From the IMG/VR virus record IMGVR_UViG_3300042290_000649, positions 1 through 58,092 of that record: 58,092 nt of DNA; one strand, 5' to 3'. Positions 9,763 to 58,092 of the stretch are shown here, piece by piece. Position 1 is the stretch's first letter. Each line of letters starts with the position of its first letter. The translations under genes were made by a program, and so were the position numbers. Origin of the DNA: a virus. Taxonomy: Duplodnaviria; Caudoviricetes. Under the pieces are notes generated by a model. It was not told the origin of the DNA and ran no database searches. It worked only from the letters and a program-made list of their open reading frames with translations.

Positions 9763-10170
9763 TTACGCCTTTGGCTCCTCTTCGAGGTCGTTGATTCCGT
9801 CGCCGTCAACATCGACCCAACCCTGCTCGCCGGCAAGGCTGCCAGCCAACTGGTCGGCAATGCCGTCACCATCGGTATCAATTGCCGAACCGGCAATGTG
9901 TGCGGTGCTTGCCTGCTCTTCGCGGGCAGCCTTTACCTTGCCAACACCAAACTTCGTGTCCTCTGGATTGAGGGCGCGAACGATTACCTGGAGGGTTGCC
10001 GCAATGGCACCCGAGGCAACAGTTCGGAAGTCATCGTTAGTCATGTCAAGAATTGGTGCGCCGGTTGCAAGCATCACGGCAATACCCGTTGCAAGGCCGA
10101 CACGGAACGCTTCGAGAAGCGCTTCGTCTATACCGGTGTTATCAAAAACCCATTTAATCTTTGCAATCAT
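9763..10170 (-). CDS. Probable holin with a DxDGDG acidic tail
   Basis: Two hydrophobic segments, ALNPEDTKFG motif, directly downstream of the endolysin; DTDGDGIAD and DVDGDGIND. Confidence 0.65.
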   Translation of the reverse strand: MIAKIKWVFDNTGIDEALLEAFRVGLATGIAVMLATGAPILDMTNDDFRTVASGAIAATLQVIVRALNPEDTKFGVGKVKAAREEQASTAHIAGSAIDTDGDGIADQLAGSLAGEQGWVDVDGDGINDLEEEPKA

Positions 10171-10179
10171 GATGTTCTC

Positions 10180-10956
10180 CTACTGATTTACTACGCCCGT
10201 GCCACCACAGCGGGAGCACGGTACGGTTGCTACCGGTGCCGCCGGCTGCGGTGCTGGAGCAACTGGAGCCGCAGCAACGGGTGCTGGAGCAACTGGTGCT
10301 ACTGCCTGAGCCGCTGGTGCTGGTGCGACCCAGCCCTTTGGCGCTGTGATAATGATGATGTGCTTAAACGCTGGGGCAACGTGCTTCTTAGACACGCGCT
10401 TTGAGTCGGCAAGAGTGAGGAGAATCTTCTCGTCAATCTTTACGCCAAACTGCTCAGCACCCTTGCCGGAGCGCGTTGGGCACGCCCACTGCCAGCCGTC
10501 GATTGGATCGTAAACGGCTGAAGTCATGTGGCCATACGTGCGGGTAGGCTGCTTCTGCTTAACCCACCACCAGCGCTGCCACTTTGCATGCCATGCGGAA
10601 ACTTCCAAACCCTTAGGGTAGCCAGCAGGCTGCTCGACCCACACCCCAAGAGCCGCTCCGGCCTTGGCAGAGTTGATGACATCGTTCCAGTCCTTTGCCC
10701 AGCGGGCATCGGCGCCTAGAACCTTGGCTGTCTTTATAAGGTCGGCCAGCGTTGAGCCGTTGTCGCTTACGCCCTGCTTCTCCACAAAACCAGTTGCTTT
10801 TGCCTTAGCGGCAATGCCGTCTGCGGCAGAGAAGTCCTTGCCTGGAGCGTACTTAAACGCCCAGGAAACTGCTGCAGCCACTGACGATGGGCCGCAGTCG
10901 TCAAGAATGCCGCCCTTCTCTTCGTGGTCCAACTGACTCTTAACCTTGTACTTCAT
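10180..10956 (-). CDS. Probable endolysin, C39-like cysteine peptidase
   Basis: SQL...DCGPSSVAAAV, GS(T)L, GHM motifs; Pro/Ala linker; adjacent to the holin. Confidence 0.65.
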   Translation of the reverse strand: MKYKVKSQLDHEEKGGILDDCGPSSVAAAVSWAFKYAPGKDFSAADGIAAKAKATGFVEKQGVSDNGSTLADLIKTAKVLGADARWAKDWNDVINSAKAGAALGVWVEQPAGYPKGLEVSAWHAKWQRWWWVKQKQPTRTYGHMTSAVYDPIDGWQWACPTRSGKGAEQFGVKIDEKILLTLADSKRVSKKHVAPAFKHIIIITAPKGWVAPAPAAQAVAPVAPAPVAAAPVAPAPQPAAPVATVPCSRCGGTGVVNQ

Positions 10957-17804: not shown

Positions 17805-17812
17805 GACTCATC

Positions 17813-44163: not shown

Positions 44164-46368
44164 ATGGCAGACGAACGCCCCAGCCTTCTGGATCGACTAC
44201 TTGGTCGAACCGAGCAGGTGGTTACTGCGCCCAAATCCGAAATCGGAATAATCCCGGACTGGGAGAACAGCCCCTACGCCCGTGCCGCAGTCGGGCAGGG
44301 CGGCGTAATGAAGCGCAGCGTTGCACAGTTGCGACGCTGGTCCAGAAACAACCCGTGGCTGCGCGCGGCAATTAACCTGCGCCGCCAGCAGGTGAGCCGT
44401 GCCCGTTGGGACATTGTGGATCTTGACGGCAACTCAAAGCCAAATCAAAAGATTGTTGACGAGTTGCGCTACATGTTCCGCCACCCAAACTCACGAGGCG
44501 ATTCATTCCGTTCGTTTATTGAGCCGGTGGTTGAAGACTTGCTCGTCCTCGATCAGGGCTGTATTGAAGTTGAGTTGACGCGTGGTTCGCGCGTGGGCAC
44601 AACTGGCTCGAAGAAGATTGCCAACCTGTGGCCAAAAGACGCAGGATTTATTGCGTTCGACCAAGATTGGGACGGGACGAGGAAGAACGACCCTCGCTAT
44701 TTCGAACTAGATGCGACTGGCAAGATCGTTGCCGAGTACCGCAATGACGAAATGGTTGTCTTGATTCACAACCCGGTAACGTATTCGCCGCTTGGTCTTT
44801 CGCCGCTAGAAGTTCTTGCTGAGACTATTGAGGCCGACCTCGCCGCCGCTGCCTATAACTCAAAGTCCGTCATGCAGGCCGCGCCTCCGGGAATCATTGA
44901 CCTCGGCGAGGGCATTCGCCCCGACCAGGTTGATCAGTTCAAGGCGTATTGGGAAGCAGAAATCGGCGGCAAGAGCATGGTTGCAATTGTTGGCGGCGGT
45001 AAGGGCGTTAAGTGGACGCCACTTGGTGCGTCAAACCGCGATATGCAATTTATGGAGTGGCAGATTTATCTGGCGCGAAAGATTTGTGCGGTGTTTGGCG
45101 TTCAGCCACAAGACATTGGTATTTCTTTTGACGTCAATCAGAGCACCGCAGAGGTTGGCGCAGCGTTTACTGCCGACAACGGCATCGCGCCACTGCTCGA
45201 CCTTATCGCTGAGTACCTAACCCGCGAAATCATTTGGCGCTTTGACGAGACCCTGCGCTTTGCCTACACCGATGTTGGTCGCGCAAGTCAGTCCGCAATT
45301 GCCGAGTACTACAAGGCTGCACTTGGCGGCCTTCCGTGGCTTCGCATCAATGACGCGCTTAAGGAGCGTGGTCAGGACGGCATTGGCGAGTACGGTGACG
45401 AGATTTGGGTAATGTCGCCAAAGGGCTACATGCCAATGTCTCTCTATATTGAATATCTTGAGCAAACATTGCTTGGCGAGAAGCCAGACGAAGAGCCCGA
45501 AGGCGAAGGCCCAGATGAAGATGGCCCAGATGAAAATGGCGGCGGCGAGGGGGAACCATCCCCCGAGGACGCAACAGACCCAGAGACAATGCGTCCGGAA
45601 AACCCACAGATGGGACCGAACCAGCAACCAGCAGACCAGAAGGCCGCTGGTAGGCCTGTAATCACGTGCGACATTGATGGAACGCTAACAACGCCAAGCG
45701 GCCCAATCGAAAACACTGTTGATTTCCTGCTCGACCAGGCGGATGAGTTCGCAATCTACATTCTTACCGCACGAAGCGAAAGCAAGCGCAGTGAAACAGA
45801 GGCAATGCTAAGCAAGTTTGATGTTCCATACGATCGACTCATCATGAACGACACGGGCGAGCCGCAACCCGTGTTCAAGAAGCGCGTGATGAAAGAGTTG
45901 ATGGCGAATAACGACATTGCTTTTGCGATTGAGAACGACGAGGCAGTTCTTGCCGAGTATCGAAAACTTGGCGTGAAGACAATGACTCCGGCCCAGGTTC
46001 CTGATGATCCAGAGGATGCAGAGAAGGGATTGCTTAAGTCGGTTAACCTCACCGTTCCAAATGGCGTCAAGGTTGAGGCCGCGCGTGGTCTTCTTTGGCG
46101 CAAGCAGTTTGGTCGCGGCGGTATTGGCCCAGGTCAGCGCACCGCGCGCATGCTGATTGGCAACAGGATGACAATTGCTCGCGTGAAGAAGATGAGCGCT
46201 TATCTCGCTCGCCATGAAGTAGACAAGAAGGGCGAAGGATTTAGCCCAGGAGAGCCAGGATATCCATCAGCGGGCAGGATCGCATGGGCCCTGTGGGGTG
46301 GCGATGCTGGTCAGTCTTGGACTGCCAAGGTAATGCGATCATTAGAGGCGCAAGAGCGAAAGGACTAA
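44164..46368 (+). CDS. Portal protein fused to a HAD phosphatase-like domain and a C-terminal basic domain
   Basis: HK97-like portal motifs (GLSPLE, DMQFMEW..YLARKICAVFGVQP, INDAL); DIDGT at aa 503, LTAR, IEND; C-terminal IAWALWGGDAG. Confidence 0.92.
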   Translation: MADERPSLLDRLLGRTEQVVTAPKSEIGIIPDWENSPYARAAVGQGGVMKRSVAQLRRWSRNNPWLRAAINLRRQQVSRARWDIVDLDGNSKPNQKIVDELRYMFRHPNSRGDSFRSFIEPVVEDLLVLDQGCIEVELTRGSRVGTTGSKKIANLWPKDAGFIAFDQDWDGTRKNDPRYFELDATGKIVAEYRNDEMVVLIHNPVTYSPLGLSPLEVLAETIEADLAAAAYNSKSVMQAAPPGIIDLGEGIRPDQVDQFKAYWEAEIGGKSMVAIVGGGKGVKWTPLGASNRDMQFMEWQIYLARKICAVFGVQPQDIGISFDVNQSTAEVGAAFTADNGIAPLLDLIAEYLTREIIWRFDETLRFAYTDVGRASQSAIAEYYKAALGGLPWLRINDALKERGQDGIGEYGDEIWVMSPKGYMPMSLYIEYLEQTLLGEKPDEEPEGEGPDEDGPDENGGGEGEPSPEDATDPETMRPENPQMGPNQQPADQKAAGRPVITCDIDGTLTTPSGPIENTVDFLLDQADEFAIYILTARSESKRSETEAMLSKFDVPYDRLIMNDTGEPQPVFKKRVMKELMANNDIAFAIENDEAVLAEYRKLGVKTMTPAQVPDDPEDAEKGLLKSVNLTVPNGVKVEAARGLLWRKQFGRGGIGPGQRTARMLIGNRMTIARVKKMSAYLARHEVDKKGEGFSPGEPGYPSAGRIAWALWGGDAGQSWTAKVMRSLEAQERKD

Positions 46369-49928: not shown

Positions 49929-50224
49929 TGTCGTCGGCGGGGTATGTTGAATTTTACGACATTGCTCCGCCAAAGTGCGAGCATGACCCATATCAAAAAG
50001 ATTGCGTCTCCTGCGCGGTTCGTGTCTTAAAGATGTACTTGCCGGCAACGATGGTGCTTTCGGTTGAGTCAAAGCCCGACTTCTACCAAGCGCAGGCTTC
50101 TGATCGTGATGGATTCTTCCGAGTCGTTGCCAGCGGTTTGACACCAGCCGACGCATTGGTTAACCTCCGAAATCCATTGGCACTGATTGCATTCATGAGC
50201 AAGTCGGATGGAGGTCAAGAATAA
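49928..50224 (+). CDS. Hypothetical protein with a CxH...CxxC motif
   Basis: ATG 49928 overlaps the upstream TAA; GAGGA RBS. Confidence 0.6.
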   Translation: MSSAGYVEFYDIAPPKCEHDPYQKDCVSCAVRVLKMYLPATMVLSVESKPDFYQAQASDRDGFFRVVASGLTPADALVNLRNPLALIAFMSKSDGGQE

Positions 50225-50385
50225 TGATGCCCGATGAGTATGGCTACCAGCCGTGCGAAGACTGCGGCGACGAAACAAGCGAGACGCTAAAGTCGGGCAC
50301 GGGACTTGGGGTGTGGCGGTGCGAGAAGTGCCACAACATTGCAACATGCGGATGTGAACTTTGCATTGCGGAGGGAGGCCACTAA
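50224..50385 (+). CDS. Small Zn-finger protein (53 aa)
   Basis: Manual translation MMPDEYGYQPCEDC...WRCEKC...CGCELC; GGAGG RBS; below the ORF-track cutoff. Confidence 0.65.
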   Translation: MMPDEYGYQPCEDCGDETSETLKSGTGLGVWRCEKCHNIATCGCELCIAEGGH

Positions 50386-50386
50386 A

Positions 50387-51112
50387 TTGACCGACTACAA
50401 GGACATTCCGTTCTTCCCTGAGGATCTTGTCGCAAAGGAGACTGTCCGACGTGTGTGGTGGCGCTGCTACAGCGACCTGCCGAAGCACAAGAAGTTGTGG
50501 CGACTCCCAGACAACAATGCACGCTGGGCGTGGATTACGCTTCTTTGCGCCGCATCGGAAACACACGGCGTATTTGAATCTGATCAGCACATCGAAGCCG
50601 TCGTCGGAACGCAGAACGCCAAGTGGCTTGCCGTATTCCGAAGGGTTGGACTGCTCGATGGACTTGTCGTTCACGATTGGGACGAGTGGCAGGAGACCCC
50701 ACAGGACGCATCTCGTGCAGAACGACTGAAGAAGTCCGCCGCAGCGCGAGAGCGATACGATCGCCTAGAGATCAATCATGTTGACGATAGCCCCGTTCCA
50801 GTCCGAACCATGAAGGAATGGCTGGAGTACGTGGTCGGTGGGCCAAATCCGCAGGGCAGGTTGACCGAATTCATCGCGGCGCAGTTCGGCATCATTCCCG
50901 ACAAGAATGATTACGGTCGCGTGGCACGACTTATCAAGTCTTATCCGGGCGGAATCCCCGCGCTCATGTCTGCGGTATGCGAGGCTGCACTACGTGATGT
51001 GAAGGGGGACTACATTGCGTACATCACCAAACTCGGTCAGGGTCGAGCCAAGTTCGGCGCCACGGTCACAACAAACACGCGAAGCGAAAGCCGGGATTCT
51101 TTCGTCGAATAA
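50387..51112 (+). CDS. Probable replication initiator (replisome organiser)
   Basis: TTG start after GGAGG; W.RCYSDLPKHKK...WITLLC.AS...VHDWDEWQ; precedes the helicase loader. Confidence 0.7.
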   Translation: MTDYKDIPFFPEDLVAKETVRRVWWRCYSDLPKHKKLWRLPDNNARWAWITLLCAASETHGVFESDQHIEAVVGTQNAKWLAVFRRVGLLDGLVVHDWDEWQETPQDASRAERLKKSAAARERYDRLEINHVDDSPVPVRTMKEWLEYVVGGPNPQGRLTEFIAAQFGIIPDKNDYGRVARLIKSYPGGIPALMSAVCEAALRDVKGDYIAYITKLGQGRAKFGATVTTNTRSESRDSFVE

Positions 51113-51126
51113 CAAACACATGCAAA

Positions 51127-51153
51127 CAATCGTCCGTCGCGGACGGACGATTG
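51127..51153. repeat. Perfect 12-bp inverted repeat between initiator and loader
   Basis: CAATCGTCCGTC-gcg-GACGGACGATTG. Confidence 0.8.
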
Positions 51154-51169
51154 AGAATGGAGGTGAGGC

Positions 51170-51856
51170 ATGCATGCCGAAACGACTCCGCCGCAGGCGG
51201 AAAGACGCGGAAAAATTTTAGAAAAAGTAGGGATTCCGCAGCGTCACGCTGCCTCATCCCTTTCTACCTGGATTGATCGTCCTGGCACGGAGAAAGGGCT
51301 CAATGCTGCACAGGAATGGATTACCAGCCCCCTGTCAGATCAGGGCTTCATGCTGCTGGGAACCCCAGGCACAGGCAAGACACACCTAGCGGTCGCAGCA
51401 CTACGGGGTAAGACAGAGGCATGGCTTGCGGAGCAGGATGCGGAAGCGAAACGCGACATCTACTACCAGCCCTCAGCACAACCAGTCCATAAGATGCGCT
51501 TCCTCAACGTGCCGCTGTTCCTGGAGCGTCTGCGCTCACAAATGCGCTACTCGGAGGGTGAGGCATCGCAACTCTTCGAATACTGCCTCGACAAGGCATC
51601 TGTGGTCGTTCTCGACGACTTGGGGAAGGAGCGAGCGACCGATTGGGCCTCCGAAAAACTGTACGTGCTGATCGAGAGCAGGTATAGTGCCTGTAAGCCT
51701 ACGATTGCTACCAGTAATCGCACGCTTGATGAATTGGATGATCTTGGCTATGGCCCAGCAATCTCTCGGCTCCAACACACATGCAGAGTCGTCCGTATGG
51801 ACGCCCCCGACTATCGCCCTCGTGCGCGAGCCGCTGAGGATACGGCTGCTCGGTAG
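51170..51856 (+). CDS. DnaC/IstB-like AAA+ helicase loader
   Basis: GTPGTGKTHLA, VVLDDLGKE, IESRY...TIATSN, AISRL, DYR. Confidence 0.92.
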   Translation: MHAETTPPQAERRGKILEKVGIPQRHAASSLSTWIDRPGTEKGLNAAQEWITSPLSDQGFMLLGTPGTGKTHLAVAALRGKTEAWLAEQDAEAKRDIYYQPSAQPVHKMRFLNVPLFLERLRSQMRYSEGEASQLFEYCLDKASVVVLDDLGKERATDWASEKLYVLIESRYSACKPTIATSNRTLDELDDLGYGPAISRLQHTCRVVRMDAPDYRPRARAAEDTAAR

Positions 51857-52193
51857 GCCCCCCTCCTGGAATGCGGCATACCGTGCGCATGGCAGCATCG
51901 TCTACAAGACACGGATTGCAAAAGACTGGAAAACCCTGATAGAATCGCTAGTGCGGGCCAGGGCGCTCGAGACACTCTGGTCCGCAAAAGAAGAGAGGAC
52001 AATCGTCGACATTAGTATCAGCCTGAAGAGGCCGATGGATGCCGACAATATCCTGAAACTCACGCTTGATGCCGTTGCATCAGGTTTGGGTATTAATGAT
52101 CGGTGGTTCTTGCCAAGGGTCTGGTCTCTCCAGACGCAGCAAGACACCGAATATGTAGACCTGTCGATATGGCAGGAAGGAGATCTAGGATGA
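51822..52193 (+). CDS. rusA: RusA-family Holliday junction resolvase
   Basis: PPSWNAAYR, DADNILKLTLDA, INDR; start codon uncertain. Confidence 0.82.
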   Translation: MREPLRIRLLGRPPSWNAAYRAHGSIVYKTRIAKDWKTLIESLVRARALETLWSAKEERTIVDISISLKRPMDADNILKLTLDAVASGLGINDRWFLPRVWSLQTQQDTEYVDLSIWQEGDLG

Positions 52194-52573
52194 TTAAGGT
52201 CACACTCCTTGGGCGCGTCGGGAGCGACCCAGTACTCCGCGCAACGAAGACTGGCAAGACCGTTGCCAACTTCAGTGTTGCAGACAACCAGAAAGAGGCA
52301 GGAGAGCAGAAGACCACGTGGTACAGCGTCTCATGCTGGGATGCAAAGGCAGAAATTGCCGAGAAAATCGTCCGTAAGGGCGACTTGGTCTATGTCGAAG
52401 GCGTCCCTACGGTCTCATCGTGGACCGACAAGCAGGGCGCAGCACGCAACGAAATTTCGATTTCGTGCCGCTTCCTCCAGGTAGAGAAGCAGAAGAAGGA
52501 CGGCCCTTCGCAGGAACCTGTTGGGTCGACCCAGTCTGCTAATATCAACGACGACATCGACATTCCGTTCTAG
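52190..52573 (+). CDS. ssb: Single-stranded DNA-binding protein
   Basis: KVTLLGRVGSDP..VANFSVA...KGDLVYVEG...DDIDIPF. Confidence 0.95.
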   Translation: MIKVTLLGRVGSDPVLRATKTGKTVANFSVADNQKEAGEQKTTWYSVSCWDAKAEIAEKIVRKGDLVYVEGVPTVSSWTDKQGAARNEISISCRFLQVEKQKKDGPSQEPVGSTQSANINDDIDIPF

Positions 52574-52631
52574 GGTCATCACGCCCTGGTCACGCTTCTG
52601 AAGTCATCACAACTTCGGAGGGAGATGTACT

Positions 52632-52664
52632 CAACCCCCAGGGGAAACCTTGGGGGTTGTTTTT
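52632..52664 (+). terminator. Intrinsic terminator after ssb
   Basis: CAACCCCCAGGG-gaaa-CCTTGGGGGTTG followed by TTTTT. Confidence 0.8.
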
Positions 52665-52692
52665 CCCCCAAAACAGCCACAAGGAGCGCCCC

Positions 52693-52995
52693 ATGCACCA
52701 AGACAGCCCTTCCACCCAAATCGCCGCTCTCCGTGGCTCTAAGGACCTTCTCCTGGAGTTCTGGGCCCCTTGGTGCGAGCCGTGTAAGCGCACGATGCCA
52801 GAAGTAGACCGTTTCGCAGCCCTTAACCCTCAGGTAGAGGTCGTCAAAATCAACGTGGATGTCGAGCGAGCCCTCACAAACGAGTGGGAAGTCCGCACCA
52901 TTCCGATGATGGTGTACGTACCAGTAGATGGAGCCCCACGCCAGATCATTGGCTTTATCCGCGCCGAGGAAATTGCGCGAAAGATTGCCGGCTGA
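52693..52995 (+). CDS. Thioredoxin
   Basis: EFWAPWCEPCK, KINVD, VRTIP; AAGGAG RBS before ATG 52693. Confidence 0.92.
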   Translation: MHQDSPSTQIAALRGSKDLLLEFWAPWCEPCKRTMPEVDRFAALNPQVEVVKINVDVERALTNEWEVRTIPMMVYVPVDGAPRQIIGFIRAEEIARKIAG

Positions 52996-53612
52996 TGCAT
53001 ACGGCCGTGATCGTTGCCGGCGGTGAGGCGCGTCGGTGGAAAAATTACGGTGGGGTGGCAAAGCATTTTGTAGAAATTGATGGCGAACGCCTCATTGACC
53101 GCACCATTTGCCAATCTTCCGCACTGTTTGAACGCACGGTCGCTGTTGTGCCCGAATCTAACTACGTTTCAGGGGTTGACCTGGAAATCATCGCCCCAGA
53201 AGAGACGAGAGCGCTCGAACCATGGAAGTTCCTCTCCTCAAAAGACGAGTGGAGCAGCGTTCGAACCACCCTGCTGTACGGAGACGTCTACTTCACCGAT
53301 TCGGCAATAAAAAAAATTGCAGCAGCAGAAGCGAAATTAGCATTTTTGATGCGCTGGACAAAGTCAGATCGCACAGGAAAGCGATATGGCGAGATCTACG
53401 CCATCAGTTTTACTGGATCTATGCATGGGCAGATCATTGCAGCCATGGAGGACTTCACCCCAGACCTAAGTATCCCTGCACGTGCTGGGTGGCACTTGCT
53501 ACATCGACTGTGGTCCGCCGCAACGATGGTTGAGATTGATGACGAGACGGAAGATTTTGATAACCCCGAGGATTACGAACGCTGGATGGTGGCTACGGGA
53601 AGAAGGGGTTGA
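52995..53612 (+). CDS. NTP transferase (MobA/LicC-like nucleotidyltransferase)
   Basis: AVIVAGGEARRW...K...IDGERLIDR, LYGDVYF, DFDNPED; TGATG overlap. Confidence 0.85.
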   Translation: MHTAVIVAGGEARRWKNYGGVAKHFVEIDGERLIDRTICQSSALFERTVAVVPESNYVSGVDLEIIAPEETRALEPWKFLSSKDEWSSVRTTLLYGDVYFTDSAIKKIAAAEAKLAFLMRWTKSDRTGKRYGEIYAISFTGSMHGQIIAAMEDFTPDLSIPARAGWHLLHRLWSAATMVEIDDETEDFDNPEDYERWMVATGRRG

Positions 53613-53657
53613 CACTCAACCCCTGCGGATTGGAGAAAAAATTTAGGTGCAGCCTTT

Positions 53658-53698
53658 GAAAACGCCAACCCCCCCGCCTGACTCGGCGAGGGGGTTGG
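53658..53698 (-). terminator. Terminator ending the leftmost cassette
   Basis: CCAACCCCCTCGCC-gagtca-GGCGGGGGGGTTGG-CGTTTT on the minus strand. Confidence 0.75.
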
Positions 53699-53717
53699 GA
53701 TAGTCCAGAGCCGATAA

Positions 53718-53798
53718 CTAGCCGCGCCGCATCACGGCGAGGATGACGATCCAAGTAGCCGCGATGTAGGCGAGGGTGAGCAGTCCCTCGCCGCTCAC
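53718..53798 (-). CDS. 26-aa single-helix membrane peptide
   Basis: MSGEGLLTLAYIAATWIVILAVMRRG; GTG overlaps the upstream TGA; GAGGTGGAGG upstream. Confidence 0.6.
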   Translation of the reverse strand: MSGEGLLTLAYIAATWIVILAVMRRG

Positions 53799-54016
53799 GC
53801 CTCCACCTCGCGGAGTGCCTCGCGTACGGCTGCCGTATGAGCCGCGCACGCTGGGACTACGAGGGCTGCCGTGCGGCGCGCGCCGTAGAGTCCGTGCGTT
53901 GGCGGGTACTGCTCGGCGACGCTGACGCTGACGAGGGCGACCGCGCCCTCGCCGCACGCCGTTGCGCCGCACGAGCGAACCTGATCCGATCCGAGCCGTG
54001 TGATTGTTGCGCTCAT
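53795..54016 (-). CDS. Hypothetical protein (C-x4-C...CxxH)
   Basis: GGGAGGCACT-ATG; 73 aa. Confidence 0.7.
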   Translation of the reverse strand: MSATITRLGSDQVRSCGATACGEGAVALVSVSVAEQYPPTHGLYGARRTAALVVPACAAHTAAVREALREVEA

Positions 54017-54048
54017 AGTGCCTCCCGATTGTGTGCCGTAGTGAGTAG

Positions 54049-54199
54049 AGGGGGCGACGCGCTACGGCACGCCGCCCCCTTGCCAGAGTGAGACTGACCG
54101 CCCGACTGACCGCCCGACTGACTGCCACCATTGCGCCGTAGCGAAGAGGATGGACTGACTGCGGGACTGACTGCGGGACTGACTGCTCCCCCTGACTGC
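54049..54199 (-). ncRNA. Candidate structured RNA/leader: rod with three symmetric C(A/G)GUCAGU internal loops, cUACGg apex and a 3' hairpin
   Basis: Six 12-nt-period GACTGACYG units (54092, 54104, 54116, 54153, 54165, 54177) whose linkers switch between CCCG and CGGG across the centre; downstream of the promoter motif at 54203. Confidence 0.6.
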
Positions 54200-54202
54200 T
54201 TC

Positions 54203-54235
54203 ACTATCTCACCCCGCCGCCCTGAATCCACCGAA
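54203..54235 (-). promoter_or_regulatory. Cassette promoter motif, variant copy
   Basis: TTCGGTGGATTC-N11-GTGAGATAGT. Confidence 0.65.
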
Positions 54236-54344
54236 GGGCGACGCACGCCGTAGGGCACGCCGAAGGGCGCGCCGAAGGCGACCCGAAGGGTGAAGAATAG
54301 GAAGATGGAAACCACGGGAAGGCGGGCATAGGTTATGCGTAAGA

Positions 54345-54389
54345 CATAACACATAACACATAACACATAACCCATAACCCGCCAGAAAC
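54345..54389. repeat. Heptad array 1: 5 x (N)CATAAC + CCAGAAAC
   Basis: Units at 54345, 54352, 54359, 54366, 54373. Confidence 0.9.
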
Positions 54390-54427
54390 AAAAAAGGGGC
54401 GACGACCCCGAAGGATCGCCGCCCCTT
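54390..54427 (-). terminator. Cassette terminator
   Basis: AAGGGGCGGCGATCC-ttcg-GGGTCGTCGCCCCTTTTTT. Confidence 0.85.
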
Positions 54428-54431
54428 GTGC

Positions 54432-54497
54432 TCACCGCCGACCGACGATCCACGCCATTACGACGACGACCGCGACCAGATACAACACCTCACCCAC
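54432..54497 (-). CDS. 21-aa membrane peptide
   Basis: MGEVLYLVAVVVVMAWIVGRR; paralogue of 57293..57358. Confidence 0.65.
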   Translation of the reverse strand: MGEVLYLVAVVVVMAWIVGRR

Positions 54498-54645
54498 GCG
54501 CCACCGCGTAGACGAGATGCGCCGCGAAGTACGCCGCCGCCGCGACGATGCCGTACCACGCGATACGCCCGACGAGGGCGCGATTCTTGCGCTCCTGCTC
54601 CATCTCCGCATAGGTGCGAAGGCTGACGATTGTTCTCCGATTCAT
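54490..54645 (-). CDS. 51-aa protein with a C-terminal TM helix
   Basis: MNRRTIVSLRTYAEMEQERKNRALVGRIAWYGIVAAAAYFAAHLVYAVARG; GAGAGGGCACT-ATG. Confidence 0.7.
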   Translation of the reverse strand: MNRRTIVSLRTYAEMEQERKNRALVGRIAWYGIVAAAAYFAAHLVYAVARG

Positions 54646-54702
54646 AGTGCCCTCTCTTTCTGCGACGACGCGCCGCCCCGAAGGGCGACGCGCCGCCGCG
54701 CT

Positions 54703-55155
54703 CTACTTTACAAACTCCTCGCCGTTCACAACGACCGACGAGATGCGCTCCAAGCCATAGGCGCGGTGTGAGTGCCGCTCACCCTTGCCGTAGCACGACG
54801 ACCCCTCACGGGAAGCGTACGGGCAAGCCGTTGCCTCGCCGTACTCGTTCATCGCGTAGACGAGGAAGCCGAGCGACTGCGTGCCTTTCTTGGAGAGGCG
54901 TACGGGATCGCCGCCGCCCCAAGCAGGATCGGGGCGACCGCTGACGCGTACCACCGAGATCGTGCCGCCGTCTACCTCGTGCGTGCTGATTGTCTGCTGC
55001 GCGGCGAAGGTGTGCCCTTCCACCGCTTTATTCTCCGCATCGGCGGCGCGCTTGGCGAGAACCTTCTCGCTCGTTGGAAGCGTGCTCGCCACGAGGGTGA
55101 ACACGCGCCCCTTCGCCGCTGCGATTGCGGCGTGGATCTGCTCTGCCGTTGCCAT
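54703..55155 (-). CDS. 150-aa protein, possible SH3/Sm-like (WYL-related) barrel
   Basis: AAAGGAGAG RBS, start 55155; GRVFTLV...LVY...RAYGLERISSVVVNGEEF. Confidence 0.65.
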   Translation of the reverse strand: MATAEQIHAAIAAAKGRVFTLVASTLPTSEKVLAKRAADAENKAVEGHTFAAQQTISTHEVDGGTISVVRVSGRPDPAWGGGDPVRLSKKGTQSLGFLVYAMNEYGEATACPYASREGSSCYGKGERHSHRAYGLERISSVVVNGEEFVK

Positions 55156-55200
55156 AGTGCGCTCTCCTTTCATACTGCGGGGAAGCCCCCCGACTCCTAT

Positions 55201-55233
55201 ACAATGCCACGCCCCTACGCTGAATCCACCGAA
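55201..55233 (-). promoter_or_regulatory. Cassette promoter motif
   Basis: TTCGGTGGATTC-N11-GTGGCATTGT. Confidence 0.75.
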
Positions 55234-55280
55234 GCCGCCGAGGTGCTCCCCGAAGGGTGAAGCGCACGCCGAAGCGCGGC

Positions 55281-55373
55281 GGATTCTTTCGGATTGGATT
55301 ATGGGGATACGGGTACGGGTAAGCGTATACACATAACACATAACCCATAACCCATAACACATAGCCCAGAAAC
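55281..55373. repeat. Spacer array 2: GGATT units, ACGGGT units, 5 heptads, CCAGAAAC
   Basis: Heptads at 55332, 55339, 55346, 55353, 55360. Confidence 0.9.
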
Positions 55374-55375
55374 AC

Positions 55376-55410
55376 AAAGAGGCGACACCCCCGAAGGGAT
55401 GCCGCCTCTT
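55376..55410 (-). terminator. Cassette terminator
   Basis: AAGAGGCGGCATCCC-ttcg-GGGGTGTCGCCTCTTTG. Confidence 0.8.
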
Positions 55411-55429
55411 GCCGTTGCCCCTGTGTGCG

Positions 55430-55819
55430 CTACCTGCTCTGTGGCTCGTAGGTGTCCATCCACTCGCCGCAGAGTCGCGTGCGCTCTACTGCCTCTGCGC
55501 CCTTCGCAGTCCTGCTGCTCGTTTCTGGATCGTTAGTCCACGCGCGAACCTGCGCGATGGTGAGTCCATCGGCGACTGTTTCGCTTGGATACCGACCACC
55601 CGCAAACACGCGAACGATTCGGAAAAGCGTTTCCGTTTCGTCTAGCGATGCCCCGCAAGCGAAGCACGCGGGGGTGTCCTCGTTCACATCGGGGCTATAC
55701 ACGGTGTCCATCGCCTCTGTTGCGCCCTGTGTGCCATCGGCACAATCGCGGCACATCACGACCCCTGCCGTTGTGTCCACATAGCCGACCAGAACGATGC
55801 CGCTTCCTGTGTTCGTCAT
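55430..55819 (-). CDS. Hypothetical protein with CxxC...CxxC and a C-terminal DPETSS domain
   Basis: GGAAGGAGCGCACT-ATG; 129 aa. Confidence 0.75.
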   Translation of the reverse strand: MTNTGSGIVLVGYVDTTAGVVMCRDCADGTQGATEAMDTVYSPDVNEDTPACFACGASLDETETLFRIVRVFAGGRYPSETVADGLTIAQVRAWTNDPETSSRTAKGAEAVERTRLCGEWMDTYEPQSR

Positions 55820-55862
55820 AGTGCGCTCCTTCCATACTGCGGAGAATCTCTCCGACTACTAA

Positions 55863-55895
55863 ACAATGCCACACGGCAACCCCGAATCCACCGAA
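55863..55895 (-). promoter_or_regulatory. Cassette promoter motif
   Basis: TTCGGTGGATTC-N11-GTGGCATTGT. Confidence 0.75.
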
Positions 55896-55933
55896 CGACC
55901 CGAAGGGCAAGGGGAAGGGTGAAGCGTGCGACT

Positions 55934-56030
55934 GATTGGATTGGATTGGATTGGATTGGGTGAACGGGTACGGGTAATGGGTAATACATAACGCATAACG
56001 CATAACGCATAACCAATAACCCCCAGAAAC
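55934..56030. repeat. Spacer array 3: (GATTG)5, ACGGGT units, 7 phased TAA heptads, CCAGAAAC
   Basis: cgggTAAtgggTAAtacaTAAcgcaTAAcgcaTAAcgcaTAAccaaTAAc. Confidence 0.9.
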
Positions 56031-56032
56031 GC

Positions 56033-56066
56033 AGAAGGGGCGAGCCGCCCCGCGACCCGCCCCCTC
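56033..56066 (-). terminator. Cassette terminator
   Basis: GAGGGGGCGGGTCGC-ggg-GCGGCTCGCCCCTTCT, weak U tract. Confidence 0.7.
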
Positions 56067-56080
56067 GTTGTGTGTGTGTC

Positions 56081-56482
56081 CTAGATCGTGCGCCCGTCGT
56101 ACATCGGGAAGCCGCCATCGTTGAGCACGCGCTCAATCTTGACGATCTCCGCATCCGTGAAGCCGCGCAACTCGTCATCGTGTACCAGTACCGCATCGCC
56201 AGCCAAGCCGCCACCTGCTAGGTAGAGCGGCGCGCTCTTCGTTGCCACCGCGAACACATCGCACGCGGTGAGGTTGATACGCGGATTCTGTACGAGAAGC
56301 CCCTCCTCGTCTACCAGAAGCGCAACGGGTACGCCGCCGAGATTGCCGCGCCCGACCATCTCCACATACTGGCAACCGATCGCGTCATACATTGGCTGTA
56401 AGCCGTTCACGCCGCGCTCCGTCTTCACGATGCGATGCGTGCCATCTTCTAGCGCGCGGATTACATACATTGACCCTGCCAT
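56081..56482 (-). CDS. DUF3846-like protein
   Basis: LQ....IGCQYVEMV...LLVDEEGL...P.IN..A...LAGDAVL...GFTDAEI; AAGGAGG RBS, start 56482. Confidence 0.8.
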   Translation of the reverse strand: MAGSMYVIRALEDGTHRIVKTERGVNGLQPMYDAIGCQYVEMVGRGNLGGVPVALLVDEEGLLVQNPRINLTACDVFAVATKSAPLYLAGGGLAGDAVLVHDDELRGFTDAEIVKIERVLNDGGFPMYDGRTI

Positions 56483-56530
56483 TTGTGTGCCTCCTTCTTT
56501 CTTCTTACGGGGAAGCCCCCCGATGAGTAG

Positions 56531-56563
56531 ACAATGCCACACATCGGGGAGCAATCCACCGAA
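56531..56563 (-). promoter_or_regulatory. Cassette promoter motif (no upstream terminator or heptad array)
   Basis: TTCGGTGGATTG-N11-GTGGCATTGT, 2 nt after the upstream stop codon. Confidence 0.75.
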
Positions 56564-56565
56564 AC

Positions 56566-56724
56566 CTACTTTGCCCATCGCCTACGCTTCATCTCCTCGC
56601 GGAAGCGTGCGATTGCCTCGCGCTTTGTGTATCCGTAGTAGGAGATGGATTCCAAATAACCATCAACCACGGCGGAGATAACCCACGAGCCGTTGTGCCA
56701 TTGGCGCGTTGCGCTAATCGTCAT
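56566..56724 (-). CDS. 52-aa hypothetical protein
   Basis: MTISATRQWHNGSWVISAVVDGYLESISYYGYTKREAIARFREEMKRRRWAK; AGGAGG RBS. Confidence 0.75.
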   Translation of the reverse strand: MTISATRQWHNGSWVISAVVDGYLESISYYGYTKREAIARFREEMKRRRWAK

Positions 56725-56787
56725 AACCCCTCCTAGCGTTGGCGGCGGAGCCGAAGCCCCGCCGCCGTTGTGAGGCGAAGCCGTCGC

Positions 56788-57033
56788 CTAGCGGTAGTAC
56801 TTCTCGCGTACTTCTTCCGCCGCGATTGCGGCGAGAGAGTCTACGAGGTAGAGGCGAATCTGCTCAACCGCGAGCAAACGGCGCTCTACGCAATGGCGTG
56901 AATCGCACGCCGCGAGAGAAGCGCAAGAGCCTTGCTCTTCGTTCTCGGTAATGTTCTTGGCGATGGCGAGAATCTGATTCTCAACCTGCGCCTCGGTGAG
57001 TACCTGCTCACCGATGAGATGGCGGTATGGCAT
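56788..57033 (-). CDS. 81-aa hypothetical protein
   Basis: GAGGAGGT RBS, start 57033 (MPYRHLIGEQV...). Confidence 0.7.
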   Translation of the reverse strand: MPYRHLIGEQVLTEAQVENQILAIAKNITENEEQGSCASLAACDSRHCVERRLLAVEQIRLYLVDSLAAIAAEEVREKYYR

Positions 57034-57081
57034 ACCAGACCTCCTCAATGTTTGAGCGGTATCGCCGCTCCCGATGAATAC

Positions 57082-57114
57082 ACAATGCCACACCCCGCGC
57101 CGCAATCCACCGAA
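57082..57114 (-). promoter_or_regulatory. Cassette promoter motif
   Basis: TTCGGTGGATTG-N11-GTGGCATTGT. Confidence 0.75.
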
Positions 57115-57160
57115 ACCCGCAACGGCACGCGGAGCCGAGCAGCAACGGCGAGGGCAGGGC

Positions 57161-57253
57161 GGATACGGAGCAATGGGGATACGGGTACGGATACGGGTAA
57201 TGGATAACTCGTAACACATAACGCATAACCCGTAACTCATAACCGCCAGAAAC
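57161..57253. repeat. Spacer array 4: ACGG(G/A)T units, 6 TAAC heptads, CCAGAAAC
   Basis: Units at 57203, 57210, 57217, 57224, 57231, 57238. Confidence 0.9.
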
Positions 57254-57292
57254 AAAGAAGGGCGAGCCGCCGAAGCGACCCGCCCTTCTTTG
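57253..57292 (-). terminator. Cassette terminator
   Basis: CAAAGAAGGGCGGGTCGC-ttcg-GCGGCTCGCCCTTCTTTG. Confidence 0.85.
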
Positions 57293-57358
57293 CTACCTAC
57301 TGCGCATCAACCACGCCATCACCGCAATAACGGCGACGAGGTACAGCGCCTCACTCAC
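57293..57358 (-). CDS. 21-aa membrane peptide
   Basis: MSEALYLVAVIAVMAWLMRSR; GGAG upstream; paralogue of 54432..54497. Confidence 0.65.
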   Translation of the reverse strand: MSEALYLVAVIAVMAWLMRSR

Positions 57359-57527
57359 TTGGCTCCGCGTACTTCACGCGGCGAGCCTCAGCGATAGCGC
57401 GCTTGCGATCATCACCGCGCTTCTCGCGGCGATGCTTCTCACAACAATCACCATCAGCAGCAGGACGCTTCGTCCAACGGACGGAGTGCTCTGGGATGGC
57501 GATCTTCTCAACACCACGACGATTCAT
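57351..57527 (-). CDS. 58-aa basic protein
   Basis: MNRRGVEKIAIPEHSVRWTKRPAADGDCCEKHRREKR...; GAGGAGG RBS. Confidence 0.7.
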   Translation of the reverse strand: MNRRGVEKIAIPEHSVRWTKRPAADGDCCEKHRREKRGDDRKRAIAEARRVKYAEPSE

Positions 57528-57587
57528 ACACCCTCCTCTGTGGCTCGCGGCGACGGAGCCGAAGCCCCGCCGCCGTCCGCCGATTGT

Positions 57588-57917
57588 TTAGGCGACGACT
57601 TCTGTCGCCGACTCTGCGAGTTCCAGAACATCGCTCTGGTCTGCGTTGCCCTCCAACGCGGTGCGAATCTTGGCGATGATTGCGGTCAGTCGCTCGTTCT
57701 CAGCGACCACCTCAGCGACCATCTCCTCTACTGAGTCCAGAGCCTCCTGAACCTCATCAGCGTGCGACTCAGCGGAGTTCGCTGAGTCCGTTGCCGAACT
57801 GGCGTAGTCCTGAGCATCAGAAGCCTCTGATGCTGCGTCCTGCGCCGCTGACGATGCGCGCTCCGCGCTGCGGCGTGCCTCCGCTAGGATGTCCGTGAGT
57901 TTCTGTGTATCGGTCAT
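57588..57917 (-). CDS. Acidic Ala/Ser/Glu-rich coiled-coil protein
   Basis: GAGGAGGT RBS; 109 aa. Confidence 0.75.
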   Translation of the reverse strand: MTDTQKLTDILAEARRSAERASSAAQDAASEASDAQDYASSATDSANSAESHADEVQEALDSVEEMVAEVVAENERLTAIIAKIRTALEGNADQSDVLELAESATEVVA

Positions 57918-57963
57918 AAGACCTCCTCACTTGGGAAGCGATCACAGCGCCTCCTCTACTTCT

Positions 57964-57996
57964 ACAATGCCACACCCCTGTGGTGAATCCACCGAA
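57964..57996 (-). promoter_or_regulatory. Cassette promoter motif
   Basis: TTCGGTGGATTC-N11-GTGGCATTGT. Confidence 0.75.
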
Positions 57997-58049
57997 CTTC
58001 CCGACGAGGTGCGCGACGGCACGAGGTCAGGGTCAGCAGGATTGTGGAG

Positions 58050-58092
58050 CGGTGATACGGGAGTTCGGATACGGGTAATGGGTAATGGGTAA
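58050..58092. repeat. Start of spacer array 5, truncated by the window end
   Basis: ggatACGGGTAATGGGTAATGGGTAA, same pattern as arrays 3 and 4. Confidence 0.8.

What the first reader, a model, noticed from the sequence alone, without database searches (positions are those of the whole stretch)
53652..58092. Sharp-edged 4.4-kb zone purged of restriction-type palindromes: candidate first-injected DNA
Seen (read by eye): from ~53652 to the end I found no GGCC, CCGG, TGCA, CATG, TCGA, AATT, TTAA, CCNGG or GGNCC, although the zone is GC-rich and tens of GGCC/CCGG would be expected. These sites are common in the rest of the window (last ones seen between ~53000 and 53651), while GATC, GCGC, CGCG and GTAC persist. 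Even ATG starts are preceded by T or A, never C. Established: T5 first-step-transfer DNA is depleted of restriction sites and encodes takeover functions. Inference: staged entry, with this arm exposed before anti-defence products protect the rest.
Basis: partly seen in the sequence, partly recalled or inferred. Interest (0 to 1): 0.85.

Follow-up and report, generated by a model that had tools for sequence, protein, structure and literature searches.

The report
Restriction-site-free early gene block of phage
The last 4.4 kb of this uncultured lake phage contig really has lost every copy of about fifteen short palindromes that restriction enzymes cut, and it is one end of a 17-kb block of early genes that seems to face host restriction enzymes before the rest of the genome is protected.

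Summary
No AATT, ACGT, ATAT, CATG, CCGG, GGCC, TCGA, TGCA or TTAA starts after base 53648. About 136 are expected, and the next longest gap is 333 bp. CCWGG, GGWCC, GTSAC and CASTG are also absent.

The zone is not a chimera. It shares the window-wide absence of AGCT, CCGCGG, TCGCGA and GCTAGC, and independent contigs bridge the edge.

The zone holds nine small minus-strand genes behind six copies of one promoter cassette, and it ends at a convergent terminator. The window end is only a contig break. In relatives about 88% identical the block runs about 17 kb. It carries 15 co-oriented promoters and DUF932, RadC and Api92-like genes, and the purge relaxes in steps away from the sharp edge.

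All four complete, more distant relatives have such a zone, each with its own set of avoided sites. A neutral simulation predicts 73±8 new sites since the split from the relative; none is seen.

T5, T7 and P23-45 show no such regional purge.

Best reading: regional Type II restriction-site avoidance in early-exposed DNA. Staged entry is plausible but untested, and the genome ends are unknown.

The parts
53649..58092 (.). Palindrome-purged zone, cut off by the contig end. It is the promoter-distal end of a larger early-gene block.
   Evidence: 0 of about 136 expected sites. G+C is 61.2% against 53.3% in the rest.
53597..53655 (.). Conserved non-coding junction element at the sharp edge (GGGGTTGACAC...CGGATTGGAGAAAAAAT..TAGGTGCAGCCTTT). 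The last AATT (53640) and TGCA (53648) lie inside it.
   Evidence: conserved in 6 of 6 aligned W-clade junctions although the flanks differ; about 87-94% identical in G003 and G004, absent from G007, G008, G010 and G011. Function unknown.
53655..53700 (-). G+C-rich inverted repeat (CCAACCCCC...GGGGGTTGG) that closes the minus-strand block. It looks like a terminator.
   Evidence: Read by eye. Not listed by the scan.
53795..54016 (-). Gene, 73 aa, no family.
54225..54235 (-). Promoter box 1 (TTCGGTGGATT) with a variant downstream box.
54340..54378 (-). Heptad array (GTTATGN on the minus strand) lying between a terminator and a promoter.
54394..54427 (-). Intrinsic terminator-like hairpin followed by a T run.
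54490..54645 (-). Gene, 51 aa, hydrophobic C-terminus.
54703..55155 (-). Gene, 150 aa, no family.
55201..55233 (-). Promoter cassette TTCGGTGGATT-N13-TGGCATTGT.
55329..55363 (-). Heptad array.
55377..55410 (-). Terminator-like hairpin.
55430..55819 (-). Gene, 129 aa, acidic (pI 4.3), Cys-rich, no family.
55863..55895 (-). Promoter cassette.
55987..56013 (-). Heptad array.
56081..56482 (-). Gene, 133 aa, DUF3846.
   Evidence: E 2e-6, 28.3 bits against a cut-off of 27.5.
56531..56563 (-). Promoter cassette.
56566..56724 (-). Gene, 52 aa, basic.
56788..57033 (-). Gene, 81 aa.
57082..57114 (-). Promoter cassette.
57204..57243 (-). Heptad array.
57351..57527 (-). Gene, 58 aa, basic.
57588..57917 (-). 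Gene, 109 aa, very acidic (25 D+E, 7 K+R, pI 4.05), helical or coiled-coil type. The family is confined to this phage group.
   Evidence: 27 proteins, 70-100% identical.
57964..57996 (-). Promoter cassette, the last before the contig end.

Best explanation
The zone is the downstream 4.4 kb of a roughly 17-kb block of early, accessory and anti-defence-type genes. The block belongs to an uncultured lake-water siphovirus of about 85 kb with a giant tape-measure protein, and all its genes run in one direction.

Selection by host Type II restriction enzymes has removed every recognition-type palindrome from the block. The rest of the genome keeps these sites.

The most economical cause is differential exposure. 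This block is in the cytoplasm, naked and being transcribed, before the phage's counter-defence is in place. The bulk of the DNA becomes exposed only afterwards, through staged or slow polar entry of the kind known in T5 and T7. A few sites (AGCT, CCGCGG, TCGCGA, GCTAGC) are avoided genome-wide, presumably because their enzymes are not neutralised.

Shown: the purge, its palindrome specificity, its sharp edge at the transcription end of the block, its maintenance by selection, its presence across the family with lineage-specific site sets, and the early-type gene and promoter architecture.

Inferred: that restriction enzymes are the selective agent, that the block is expressed early, that entry is staged, and which end enters first.
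For: 1. Specificity.
- 10 of the 11 tetranucleotides missing from the zone are palindromes.
- The highest-expectation missing pentanucleotides are CCWGG, GGWCC, GTSAC and CASTG.
- In the 16.9-kb block of relative G001 the further under-represented words include CCWWGG, TGCGCA, RGCGCY, TCGCGA and CCGCGG.

2. Selection.
- The window zone and the G001 zone differ by 508 substitutions in 4,420 aligned bases.
- The same number and spectrum of random substitutions creates 73±8 sites (minimum 49 in 2,000 trials).
- None is observed inside the zone.

3. Lineage-specific sets.
- The W-clade purges CCGG, GGCC and TCGA and keeps GATC.
- G011 purges AATT, ACGT, CATG, TGCA, TTAA, ATAT and GGWCC but keeps CCGG, GGCC, TCGA and AGCT.
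- G007 and G008 also purge GATC in the core.
- This is what different host restriction repertoires would produce, and not what a general structural constraint would.

4. Generality.
- All W-clade contigs that reach past the junction show the zone: G001/G002, G003/G006, G004 and G005. These are 6 of 6 loci and 4 distinct lineages besides the window.
- 4 of 4 complete relatives show it.

5. Architecture.
- 6 of 6 box-1 promoters in the window lie in the zone, all on the minus strand.
- 15 of 15 forward (+ strand) box-1 copies in G001 lie in the block; the single reverse-strand copy (11794) also lies in the block.
- Genes are small, each with a GGAGG-type ribosome-binding site and its own terminator.
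- Block genes include DUF932, a RadC-like JAB domain, an Api92-like domain, DUF4241, an HTH protein and DUF3846. DUF932 and the Api92-like protein have homologues in the zones of G007, G008 and G010; RadC in those of G007 and G008 only (none found in G010).

6. Precedent.
- T5-like phages are restricted only through sites in the FST (passages in PMC10644984).
- Murciaviruses are restricted only through a motif in the first-injected region. The authors predict sub-genomic selection on that segment (abstract and discussion of PMC12455610).
Against: - No physical terminus is known. The complete relatives are circular-type assemblies. The runs are held only as contigs and showed no pile-up of molecule ends.
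- The block is flanked by ordinary DNA on both sides in G001.
- The purge is strongest at the transcription END of the block and relaxes towards its upstream start. That is the opposite of a simple T7-like model with promoters at the leading end pointing inwards.
- The relaxation is not strictly nested: a TGCA-only island lies at G001 9.9-12.7 kb. Three of five step boundaries fall 68-89 bp upstream of a promoter cassette. This fits shuffling of modules as well as order of entry.
- No recognised anti-restriction protein was found among the 38 block and flanking proteins scanned: no ArdA, KlcA or Ocr, and no T5 A1/A2.
- The host and its restriction enzymes are unknown.
- In G007 and G010 the 5-6 kb across the sharp edge is also partly depleted of AATT, TTAA and TGCA.
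- T5, T7 and P23-45, phages with documented first-entering early regions, show no comparable purge.
Confidence: 0.6

Rival explanations
1. Promiscuous module pool. The block is a set of accessory modules that are shuffled among many phage lineages through the repeated promoter and terminator cassettes. Each module carries the accumulated site avoidance of every host background it has passed through. The pattern then reflects module history, not order of DNA entry.
For: - Three of five purge-step boundaries in G001 (5974, 8723, 12684) lie 68-89 bp upstream of box-1 promoters (6053, 8791, 12773).
- TCGA-only and TGCA-only segments are not nested.
- Lake metagenome contigs show joints from cassette to cassette that skip whole modules: 54371>55334, 55363>56743, 55358>57964, 55406>56079.
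- Gene order differs between G001 and G007.
- Six contigs break inside the zone.
Against: The bulk genome travels in the same virions into the same hosts and keeps about 30 sites per kb, so some differential exposure is still needed. The staircase order is shared by G001, G003 and G004 because the modules are syntenic and 80-91% identical, which points to stable inheritance rather than constant reshuffling. This reading complements the best explanation more than it replaces it.
Confidence: 0.17
2. Transcription-coupled accessibility without staged entry. The whole genome enters at once, but the bulk is shielded, for example by co-injected DNA-binding proteins or by compaction. Only the strongly transcribed early units are stripped and so accessible to restriction enzymes.
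For: The sharp edge coincides with the terminator that ends the block. Several purge steps coincide with promoter cassettes. Partial depletion spreads a few kb across the edge in G007 and G010.
Against: No shielding protein was identified. It needs more assumptions than staged entry.
Confidence: 0.1
3. The constraint is not host restriction. The sites would be targets of the phage's own early nucleases or methyltransferases, and the early block must escape self-cleavage, or escape methylation that would attract methyl-dependent nucleases.
For: It would also yield palindrome-specific, lineage-specific avoidance. The T5 pre-early phase degrades host DNA while the FST DNA survives (introduction of PMC10644984).
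Against: No nuclease or methyltransferase of that kind appears among the proteins scanned in the window and in the G001 block. About fifteen separate specificities would be required. The missing roughly 15 kb of the genome was not seen.
Confidence: 0.06
4. Assembly chimera or foreign insert: the zone comes from another organism with a different composition.
For: G+C jumps from 53% to 61% at the edge.
Against: - The zone shares the rare genome-wide avoidances. AGCT is 0. CCGCGG and TCGCGA are 0 among 65 CGCG sites, with 4.8 and 2.5 expected.
- The junction is bridged by contigs from separate samples: W, G001/G002, G003/G006, G004, G005.
- It is also bridged by Logan contigs in runs X5 (53580-53878) and X6 (53569-54714).
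- The zone is present in 4 of 4 complete relatives.
Confidence: 0.01

Closest known systems
First-step-transfer (pre-early) region of T5-like phages
   Same: A block of small early genes with their own strong promoters, some transcribed towards the genome end (T5 dmp, A1 and A2 lie on the minus strand at the left end). Restriction acts only through sites in that region (PMC10644984). Non-coding repeat arrays sit at the border.
   Different: The T5 FST shows no general loss of 4- or 6-bp palindromes. There are no A1, A2 or dmp homologues here. A long terminal repeat and two-step transfer are unproven here. The zone here is larger (about 17 kb) and tiered.
Leading early region of T7 and other Autographiviridae (Ocr; Murciavirus Type I RM motif)
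   Same: Restriction sensitivity is set by motifs in the first-injected segment. Several co-oriented early promoters are followed by a terminator that closes the early region (PMC12455610).
   Different: T7 class I DNA has no regional tetranucleotide purge; its longest palindrome-free gap is 171 bp. There is no Ocr homologue here. Here the purge is strongest at the terminator end, not at the promoter end.
Pre-early region of Thermus phage P23-45 (giant tape-measure phage)
   Same: A siphovirus-type genome of about 85 kb with a tape-measure protein of more than 5,000 residues. It has a 9-kb block of small genes, each with a conserved promoter and a conserved terminator, thought to enter first (PMC10770324).
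   Different: The tape measure here has no DxDxD polymerase signature, no similarity by tblastn or to PDB chains, and no gp64 homologue. P23-45 avoids AATT, GATC, GTSAC and CASTG genome-wide, with no step at genes 59-77.
[quoted passage not shown]
   Same: This is the first DNA to enter. It is G+C-rich and rich in small anti-defence genes (abstracts of PMC11541004, and PMC13478746). From memory, DUF932 and RadC genes sit beside anti-restriction genes in such elements; my searches did not confirm this.
   Different: Plasmid leading regions are 'not consistently depleted' in 4-8 bp palindromes (abstract of PMC13478746). Here the depletion is total. No ArdA, KlcA or PsiB was found.

Membership tests
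Type II restriction-site avoidance (regional) | The avoided words are short palindromes of the kind Type II enzymes recognise. | tested here: met
   10 of 11 absent 4-mers are palindromes. CCWGG, GGWCC, GTSAC and CASTG are absent. CCWWGG, TGCGCA, RGCGCY, TCGCGA and CCGCGG are under-represented.
Type II restriction-site avoidance (regional) | Absence is maintained by selection, not by composition or ancestry. | tested here: met
   Markov expectation is about 125 sites. The neutral simulation gives 73±8 new sites against 0 observed.
Type II restriction-site avoidance (regional) | The set of avoided sites varies with lineage or host. | tested here: met
   W-clade compared with G007, G008, G010 and G011.
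Type II restriction-site avoidance (regional) | Cognate enzymes are present in the host. | not testable with these tools
   Host unknown. The only genome hit is a 1,070-bp contig of a Phycisphaerales MAG with 49% portal identity.
T5-type first-step-transfer region | Lies in a long direct terminal repeat at a physical genome end. | tested here: inconclusive
   Contig depth is about 2x in the zone in X5 (5.9 to 11.4) and X6 (about 14 to about 30). But a unitig break at the step fits a shared variant better, and no read-level data were available.
T5-type first-step-transfer region | Two-step DNA transfer with an injection stop signal. | not testable with these tools
   Needs infection experiments. 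A conserved junction element exists but its function is unknown.
T5-type first-step-transfer region | A1, A2 and dmp pre-early proteins. | tested here: not met
   tblastn found no hit at E 0.01 in W, G001, G003, G004, G007, G008, G010 or G011.
T5-type first-step-transfer region | Cluster of small genes with their own promoters and terminators. | tested here: met
T7-type early region | Ocr-like DNA mimic as the first gene. | tested here: not met
   No Ocr homologue. A 109-aa protein with net charge about -18 exists, but its fold could not be predicted.
T7-type early region | Promoters at the leading end pointing inwards, so that transcription pulls the DNA in. | tested here: inconclusive
   15 co-oriented promoters, but the terminus is unknown and the purge gradient runs the other way.
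P23-45-type pre-early region | Virion RNA polymerase fused to the tape measure (DxDxD). | tested here: not met
   No D.D.D motif in the 5,542-aa protein. No hits.
P23-45-type pre-early region | Giant tape-measure protein. | tested here: met
   5,542-aa ORF with a TMP_3 domain, E 1.1e-10.
Plasmid-type leading-region anti-defence island | Known anti-restriction genes (ArdA, KlcA/ArdB, PsiB). | tested here: not met
   Pfam scans of 29 block proteins found none.

The most novel reading that the evidence does not exclude
The tiered purge may be a sequence-encoded record of how the genome enters the cell. DNA would enter slowly or in several steps, starting at the sharp edge. The conserved junction element would then be a terminus or an injection stop. 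Individual restriction specificities would stop mattering one after another as distance from the edge grows: in the W-clade TCGA after about 9-10 kb, CATG and TGCA after about 12 kb, and AATT, ACGT, TTAA, GGCC and CCGG after about 17 kb. If so, the order and timing of entry, and the host restriction repertoire, could be read from sequence alone in uncultured phages. Sliding-window palindrome scans would then map leading ends across viromes.
Probability: 0.25. Interest if true: 0.85.

Novelty: new variant of a known kind. Interest (0 to 1): 0.72.

Why it matters
Experiments on T5-like phages and on murciaviruses have shown that restriction-modification acts mainly on the first-injected segment. 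The 2025 paper on murciaviruses (PMC12455610) noted that site-avoidance surveys had ignored where sites lie. This phage family supplies the missing genomic footprint in extreme form: a base-sharp, 4- to 17-kb stretch with none of about fifteen restriction-type palindromes, held by selection, with lineage-specific site sets.

The footprint gives three things:
- a purely computational marker for exposed or leading DNA in uncultured phages;
- a prediction of the host's restriction repertoire, including which enzymes the phage cannot neutralise (AGCT, CCGCGG, TCGCGA and GCTAGC are avoided genome-wide);
- a defined pool of about 30 small early genes in which to look for new anti-restriction functions.

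None of T5, T7 and P23-45 shows it, nor do plasmid leading regions according to the abstract of PMC13478746.

Tried and rejected
- DNA similarity of the zone to 50,697 phage records found no match.
- The first 2,000 aa of the tape measure had no tblastn hit in the phage records and no PDB chain.
- Read-level mapping of termini was not possible. All 24 runs are held as contigs only. Laying four of them gave no places where molecules begin or end. The RNA-library contigs of X20 cover parts of the zone and of its left flank, but that does not show transcription.
- The roughly 2x contig depth over the zone was considered as a sign of a long terminal repeat. I did not adopt it, because the unitig break at the step points to variant sharing.
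- Rfam gave only sub-threshold matches in the zone.
- The ESM Atlas gave no usable lead for the 150-aa and 129-aa proteins; best scores were 0.89 and 0.82.
- Forced dipeptides (Trp-Pro, Met-His, Met-Gln), tried as a protein-level test of avoidance, gave numbers too small to interpret.
- Host search: one scan of genome contigs with the portal gave a single 1,070-bp MAG contig at 49% identity, which is not enough to name a host.
- The 23 more distant exonuclease loci (AGCT present) show no gap longer than 632 bp within ±10 kb of that gene. That says nothing about zones elsewhere in those genomes.
- Literature searches for a prior description of a regional palindrome purge in a phage found none. 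PMC6286503 holds none of the terms 'early', 'enters', 'injected', 'part of the genome' or 'region of'. Subscription journals and supplementary files were not searchable.

Full report
**1. The observation**

I counted every palindromic tetranucleotide in the window. From 53652 to the end there is no AATT, ACGT, ATAT, CATG, CCGG, GGCC, TCGA, TGCA or TTAA. The first 53,651 bases hold 102-256 copies of each. CCNGG and GGNCC are also absent (193 and 136 elsewhere).

CGCG (65), GCGC (63), GTAC (21), GATC (16), CTAG (8) and TATA (3) persist.

The last avoided site is a TGCA starting at 53648. The resulting gap is 4,445 bp, and the next longest gap in the window is 333 bp. Every 1-kb bin before 53 kb holds 16-45 sites. 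At the background rate of 30.6 per kb, 136 sites are expected. From the zone's own di- and trinucleotide content about 125 are expected.

Of the 11 tetranucleotides missing from the zone, 10 are palindromes. Among pentanucleotides with no occurrence, the four with the highest expectation are GGWCC, CCWGG, GTSAC and CASTG.

**2. It is not a chimera**

AGCT is absent from the whole window. In the first 53.6 kb CCGCGG, TCGCGA and GCTAGC are absent and GGATCC occurs once, against expectations of 3-19. The zone shares this pattern: among its 65 CGCG sites there is no CCGCGG (4.8 expected) and no TCGCGA (2.5 expected).

Contigs from other samples cross the edge. So do Logan contigs of two further runs, X5 at 53580-53878 and X6 at 53569-54714.

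**3. What the zone is**

The window is a complete IMG/VR record, linear, with an estimated completeness of 67%. It encodes:
- a terminase, a portal, a prohead protease and an SU10-type capsid protein;
- tail-fibre proteins and a 2,257-aa fibre with an S74 chaperone domain;
- a 5,542-aa protein with a tape-measure domain.

Left of the edge, on the plus strand, lie a PD-(D/E)XK exonuclease, a DnaC/IstB-like ATPase, RusA, SSB and an NTP-transferase-like gene.

The zone itself holds nine small genes on the minus strand (51-150 aa), each with a GGAGG-type ribosome-binding site. Six copies of a promoter-like cassette punctuate them. Box 1, TTCGGTGGATT, occurs six times in the window, always in the zone and always on the minus strand. 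Five of the six copies read TTCGGTGGATT-N13-TGGCATTGT. TGGCAT(T/A)GT looks like an extended -10 element; the promoter class is not established.

Upstream of each cassette sits an array of GTTATGN heptads, and before that a hairpin terminator.

Only one zone protein matches a family, DUF3846. One 109-aa protein is very acidic (25 D+E, 7 K+R), and its 27 relatives all belong to this phage group.

The block ends at a G+C-rich inverted repeat facing the plus-strand genes. The sharp edge is therefore a convergent transcription junction.

**4. The window end is only a contig break**

Scanning IMG/VR for the promoter pattern found two contigs, G001 (37.2 kb) and G002 (45.1 kb). They represent one strain, being 99.96% identical over 24.4 kb. 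They are 86-91% identical to the window.

G001 13506-18736 corresponds to window 58087-53597. G001 then continues 13.5 kb beyond the window end.

In G001 the block runs from about 1.1 to 18.7 kb. It holds 15 box-1 promoters, all on one strand. 76 of the contig's 77 GTTATG motifs lie in the block region, typically about 100 bp upstream of a promoter.

Upstream of the first promoter lie a dense array of GTTATG motifs, a tRNA-Ile(TAT) gene, and then genes on the opposite strand.

Block genes include DUF932 (E 1e-55), a RadC-like JAB domain (E 1e-34), an Api92-like ferredoxin domain, DUF4241 and a small HTH protein.

**5. A tiered purge**

In G001, measured from the sharp edge at 18.68 kb:
- 12.7-18.7 kb has none of the sites, apart from one ATAT.
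- 9.9-12.7 kb has TGCA only.
- 8.7-9.9 kb has none.
- 6.0-8.7 kb has TCGA only, at 7-8 per kb.
- 1-6 kb has TCGA, TGCA and CATG.
- AATT, ACGT, TTAA, GGCC and CCGG are absent throughout 1.8-18.68 kb. From the density in the rest of the contig, 32-72 copies of each are expected.

Three of the five step boundaries (5974, 8723, 12684) lie 68-89 bp upstream of a box-1 promoter.

G003 (57 kb) and G004 (69.7 kb) show the same order. They lack box 1 but are syntenic with G001 and 80-91% identical to it in the outer block.

In the 16.9-kb G001 block the other strongly under-represented words include CCWGG, CCWWGG, TGCGCA, RGCGCY, TCGCGA and CCGCGG.

**6. Selection**

The window zone and the G001 zone differ by 508 substitutions over 4,420 aligned positions. 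Applying the same number and spectrum of substitutions at random creates 73±8 avoided sites, with a minimum of 49 in 2,000 trials. None is observed inside the zone.

**7. Generality and lineage specificity**

I searched with the exonuclease gene and obtained 34 loci.
- Eleven loci are AGCT-free. Six of them reach past the junction, and all six show a site-free gap of 1.9-3.5 kb starting there. These six represent four lineages besides the window: G001/G002, G003/G006, G004 and G005.
- The other five AGCT-free loci stop short of the junction.
- The 23 more distant loci show no gap above 632 bp near that gene.

I then searched with the terminase. Four complete relatives of 83-86 kb (73-75% TerL identity, end overlaps of 22-123 bp) all have a zone of 10-16 kb.

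Their avoided sets differ:
- G011 has lost AATT, ACGT, CATG, TGCA, TTAA, ATAT and GGWCC. It keeps CCGG, GGCC, TCGA and AGCT at or above the genome density.
- G007 and G008 have also lost GATC in the core.

Each of these zones has one sharp edge, towards which the genes are transcribed, and one staggered edge. Homologues of DUF932 and the Api92-like gene lie in the zones of G007, G008 and G010, and of RadC in those of G007 and G008.

Such lineage-specific sets of classical restriction sites argue for restriction enzymes as the selective agent. They argue against a general structural constraint on palindromes.

**8. Comparison with known systems**

I counted the same words in three model phages.
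- The T5 FST (1-10,219) is not depleted: 66.9 four-bp palindromes per kb against 63.1 in the next 50.8 kb, and 14.6 against 14.3 six-bp palindromes per kb.
- The T7 early region shows nothing regional. Its longest palindrome-free gap is 171 bp. GATC is rare genome-wide.
- P23-45 is the Thermus phage with a 5,002-aa tape measure that carries a virion RNA polymerase, and with a 9-kb pre-early region (PMC10770324, Results read). It avoids AATT, GATC, GTSAC and CASTG throughout, with no step at genes 59-77.

The tape measure here has no DxDxD motif and no detectable similarity to that of P23-45. No T5 A1, A2 or dmp, T7 Ocr or 0.7, or P23-45 gp39, gp64 or gp76 homologue exists in eight genomes of the family.

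The principle itself is in print:
- T5-like phages are restricted only through sites in the FST (PMC10644984, passages).
- Murciaviruses are restricted only through a motif in the first-injected region. The authors argue that restriction-modification selects at a sub-genomic scale and that earlier avoidance surveys ignored location (PMC12455610, abstract and discussion).
- Plasmid leading regions are G+C-rich but not consistently depleted of palindromes (PMC13478746, abstract).

I found no description of a regional purge like this one.

**9. Mechanism**

The bulk genome in the same virion keeps about 30 of these sites per kb. The block must therefore be exposed to restriction differently from the rest. 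Staged or slow polar entry, with counter-defence expressed from the block, is the explanation with experimental precedent.

Polarity is unresolved.
- The gradient is strongest at the sharp edge, and genes are transcribed towards that edge, as for T5 dmp, A1 and A2. A junction element conserved within the W-clade also lies there. These points favour the sharp edge as a terminus or an injection stop.
- The 15 co-oriented promoters and the repeat array at the upstream end would instead suit a T7-like leading end there. The gradient argues against that.

Three observations show that module shuffling also shapes the pattern: the non-nested TGCA island, the steps at cassette boundaries, and the cassette-to-cassette joints seen in lake metagenomes.

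Contig depth is about 2x over the zone in two runs. That could mean a long terminal repeat, but it is equally explained by variants that share the zone.

**10. Verdict**

This is an extreme, tiered and family-wide form of a known kind of adaptation, regional restriction-site avoidance in early-exposed DNA.

Habitat: 19 DNA runs labelled lake-water metagenome hold 39-99% of the sampled words of the stretch. The host is unknown.

Noticed in passing
window 1-58092; also G001-G006: AGCT is completely absent from the 58-kb window and from every close relative. CCGCGG, TCGCGA and GCTAGC are also absent, and GGATCC occurs once. More distant relatives hold 192-390 AGCT.
   Followed up: partly
window 17813-34441 (-) and 11031-17804 (-): A 5,542-aa ORF with a tape-measure domain and an HExxH motif at residue 1443. 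At 1.5 Å per residue (my own figure, recalled) it implies a tail of about 0.8 µm. Next to it lies a 2,257-aa fibre with an S74 chaperone domain. Unlike the P23-45 tape measure it has no DxDxD polymerase motif.
   Followed up: partly
window 54340-54378, 55329-55363, 55987-56013, 57204-57243; L011 540-1080 and before each promoter: Arrays of 3-8 GTTATGN heptads sit about 100 bp upstream of nearly every early promoter. 76 of 77 GTTATG in G001 lie in the block region. YACCC/GTACCC and CCAAT repeats lie between array and promoter. This may be a regulator-binding or DNA-bending element. The arrays are also the points where modules are exchanged.
   Followed up: partly
window 53597-53655: A non-coding element of about 55-75 nt, exactly at the sharp edge, is conserved in all W-clade contigs although the genes on both sides differ. 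It contains TTGACA and GGATTGG. It could be a terminus, an injection stop or a promoter; this was not tested.
   Followed up: partly
window 53780-58092 against 50000-53780: Contig depth roughly doubles over the zone in two independent lake runs (X5 about 5.9 to 11.4; X6 about 14 to about 30). This could be a collapsed long terminal repeat or a segment shared by co-occurring variants.
   Followed up: partly
window 54371-57964: Metagenome contigs join one cassette directly to another, skipping whole gene modules (for example 54371>55334, 55363>56743, 55358>57964). Natural variants therefore differ by presence or absence of modules.
   Followed up: no
window 52973-53597: The last plus-strand gene before the edge (NTP-transferase-like, 242 aa) is present in W, G004 and G005. 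In G001, G003 and G006 an unrelated short sequence replaces it.
   Followed up: no
window 44164-46368 (+): The portal protein (residues 66-400) carries a C-terminal extension that matches polynucleotide kinase/phosphatase-type HAD families (residues about 490-617).
   Followed up: no
L011 886-961: A tRNA-Ile with anticodon TAT lies inside the repeat array just upstream of the first early promoter of relative G001. The window itself has no tRNA.
   Followed up: no
L016 (P23-45, 1-50000): Thermus phage P23-45 avoids several sites genome-wide: AATT 1, GATC 0, GTSAC 0, CASTG 2 and TCGA 29 in 50 kb. It shows no regional step.
   Followed up: yes
window 4434-4836 and 12138-12593: 192-bp tandem repeats (2.1 and 2.4 copies) lie inside tail-fibre genes.
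   Followed up: no
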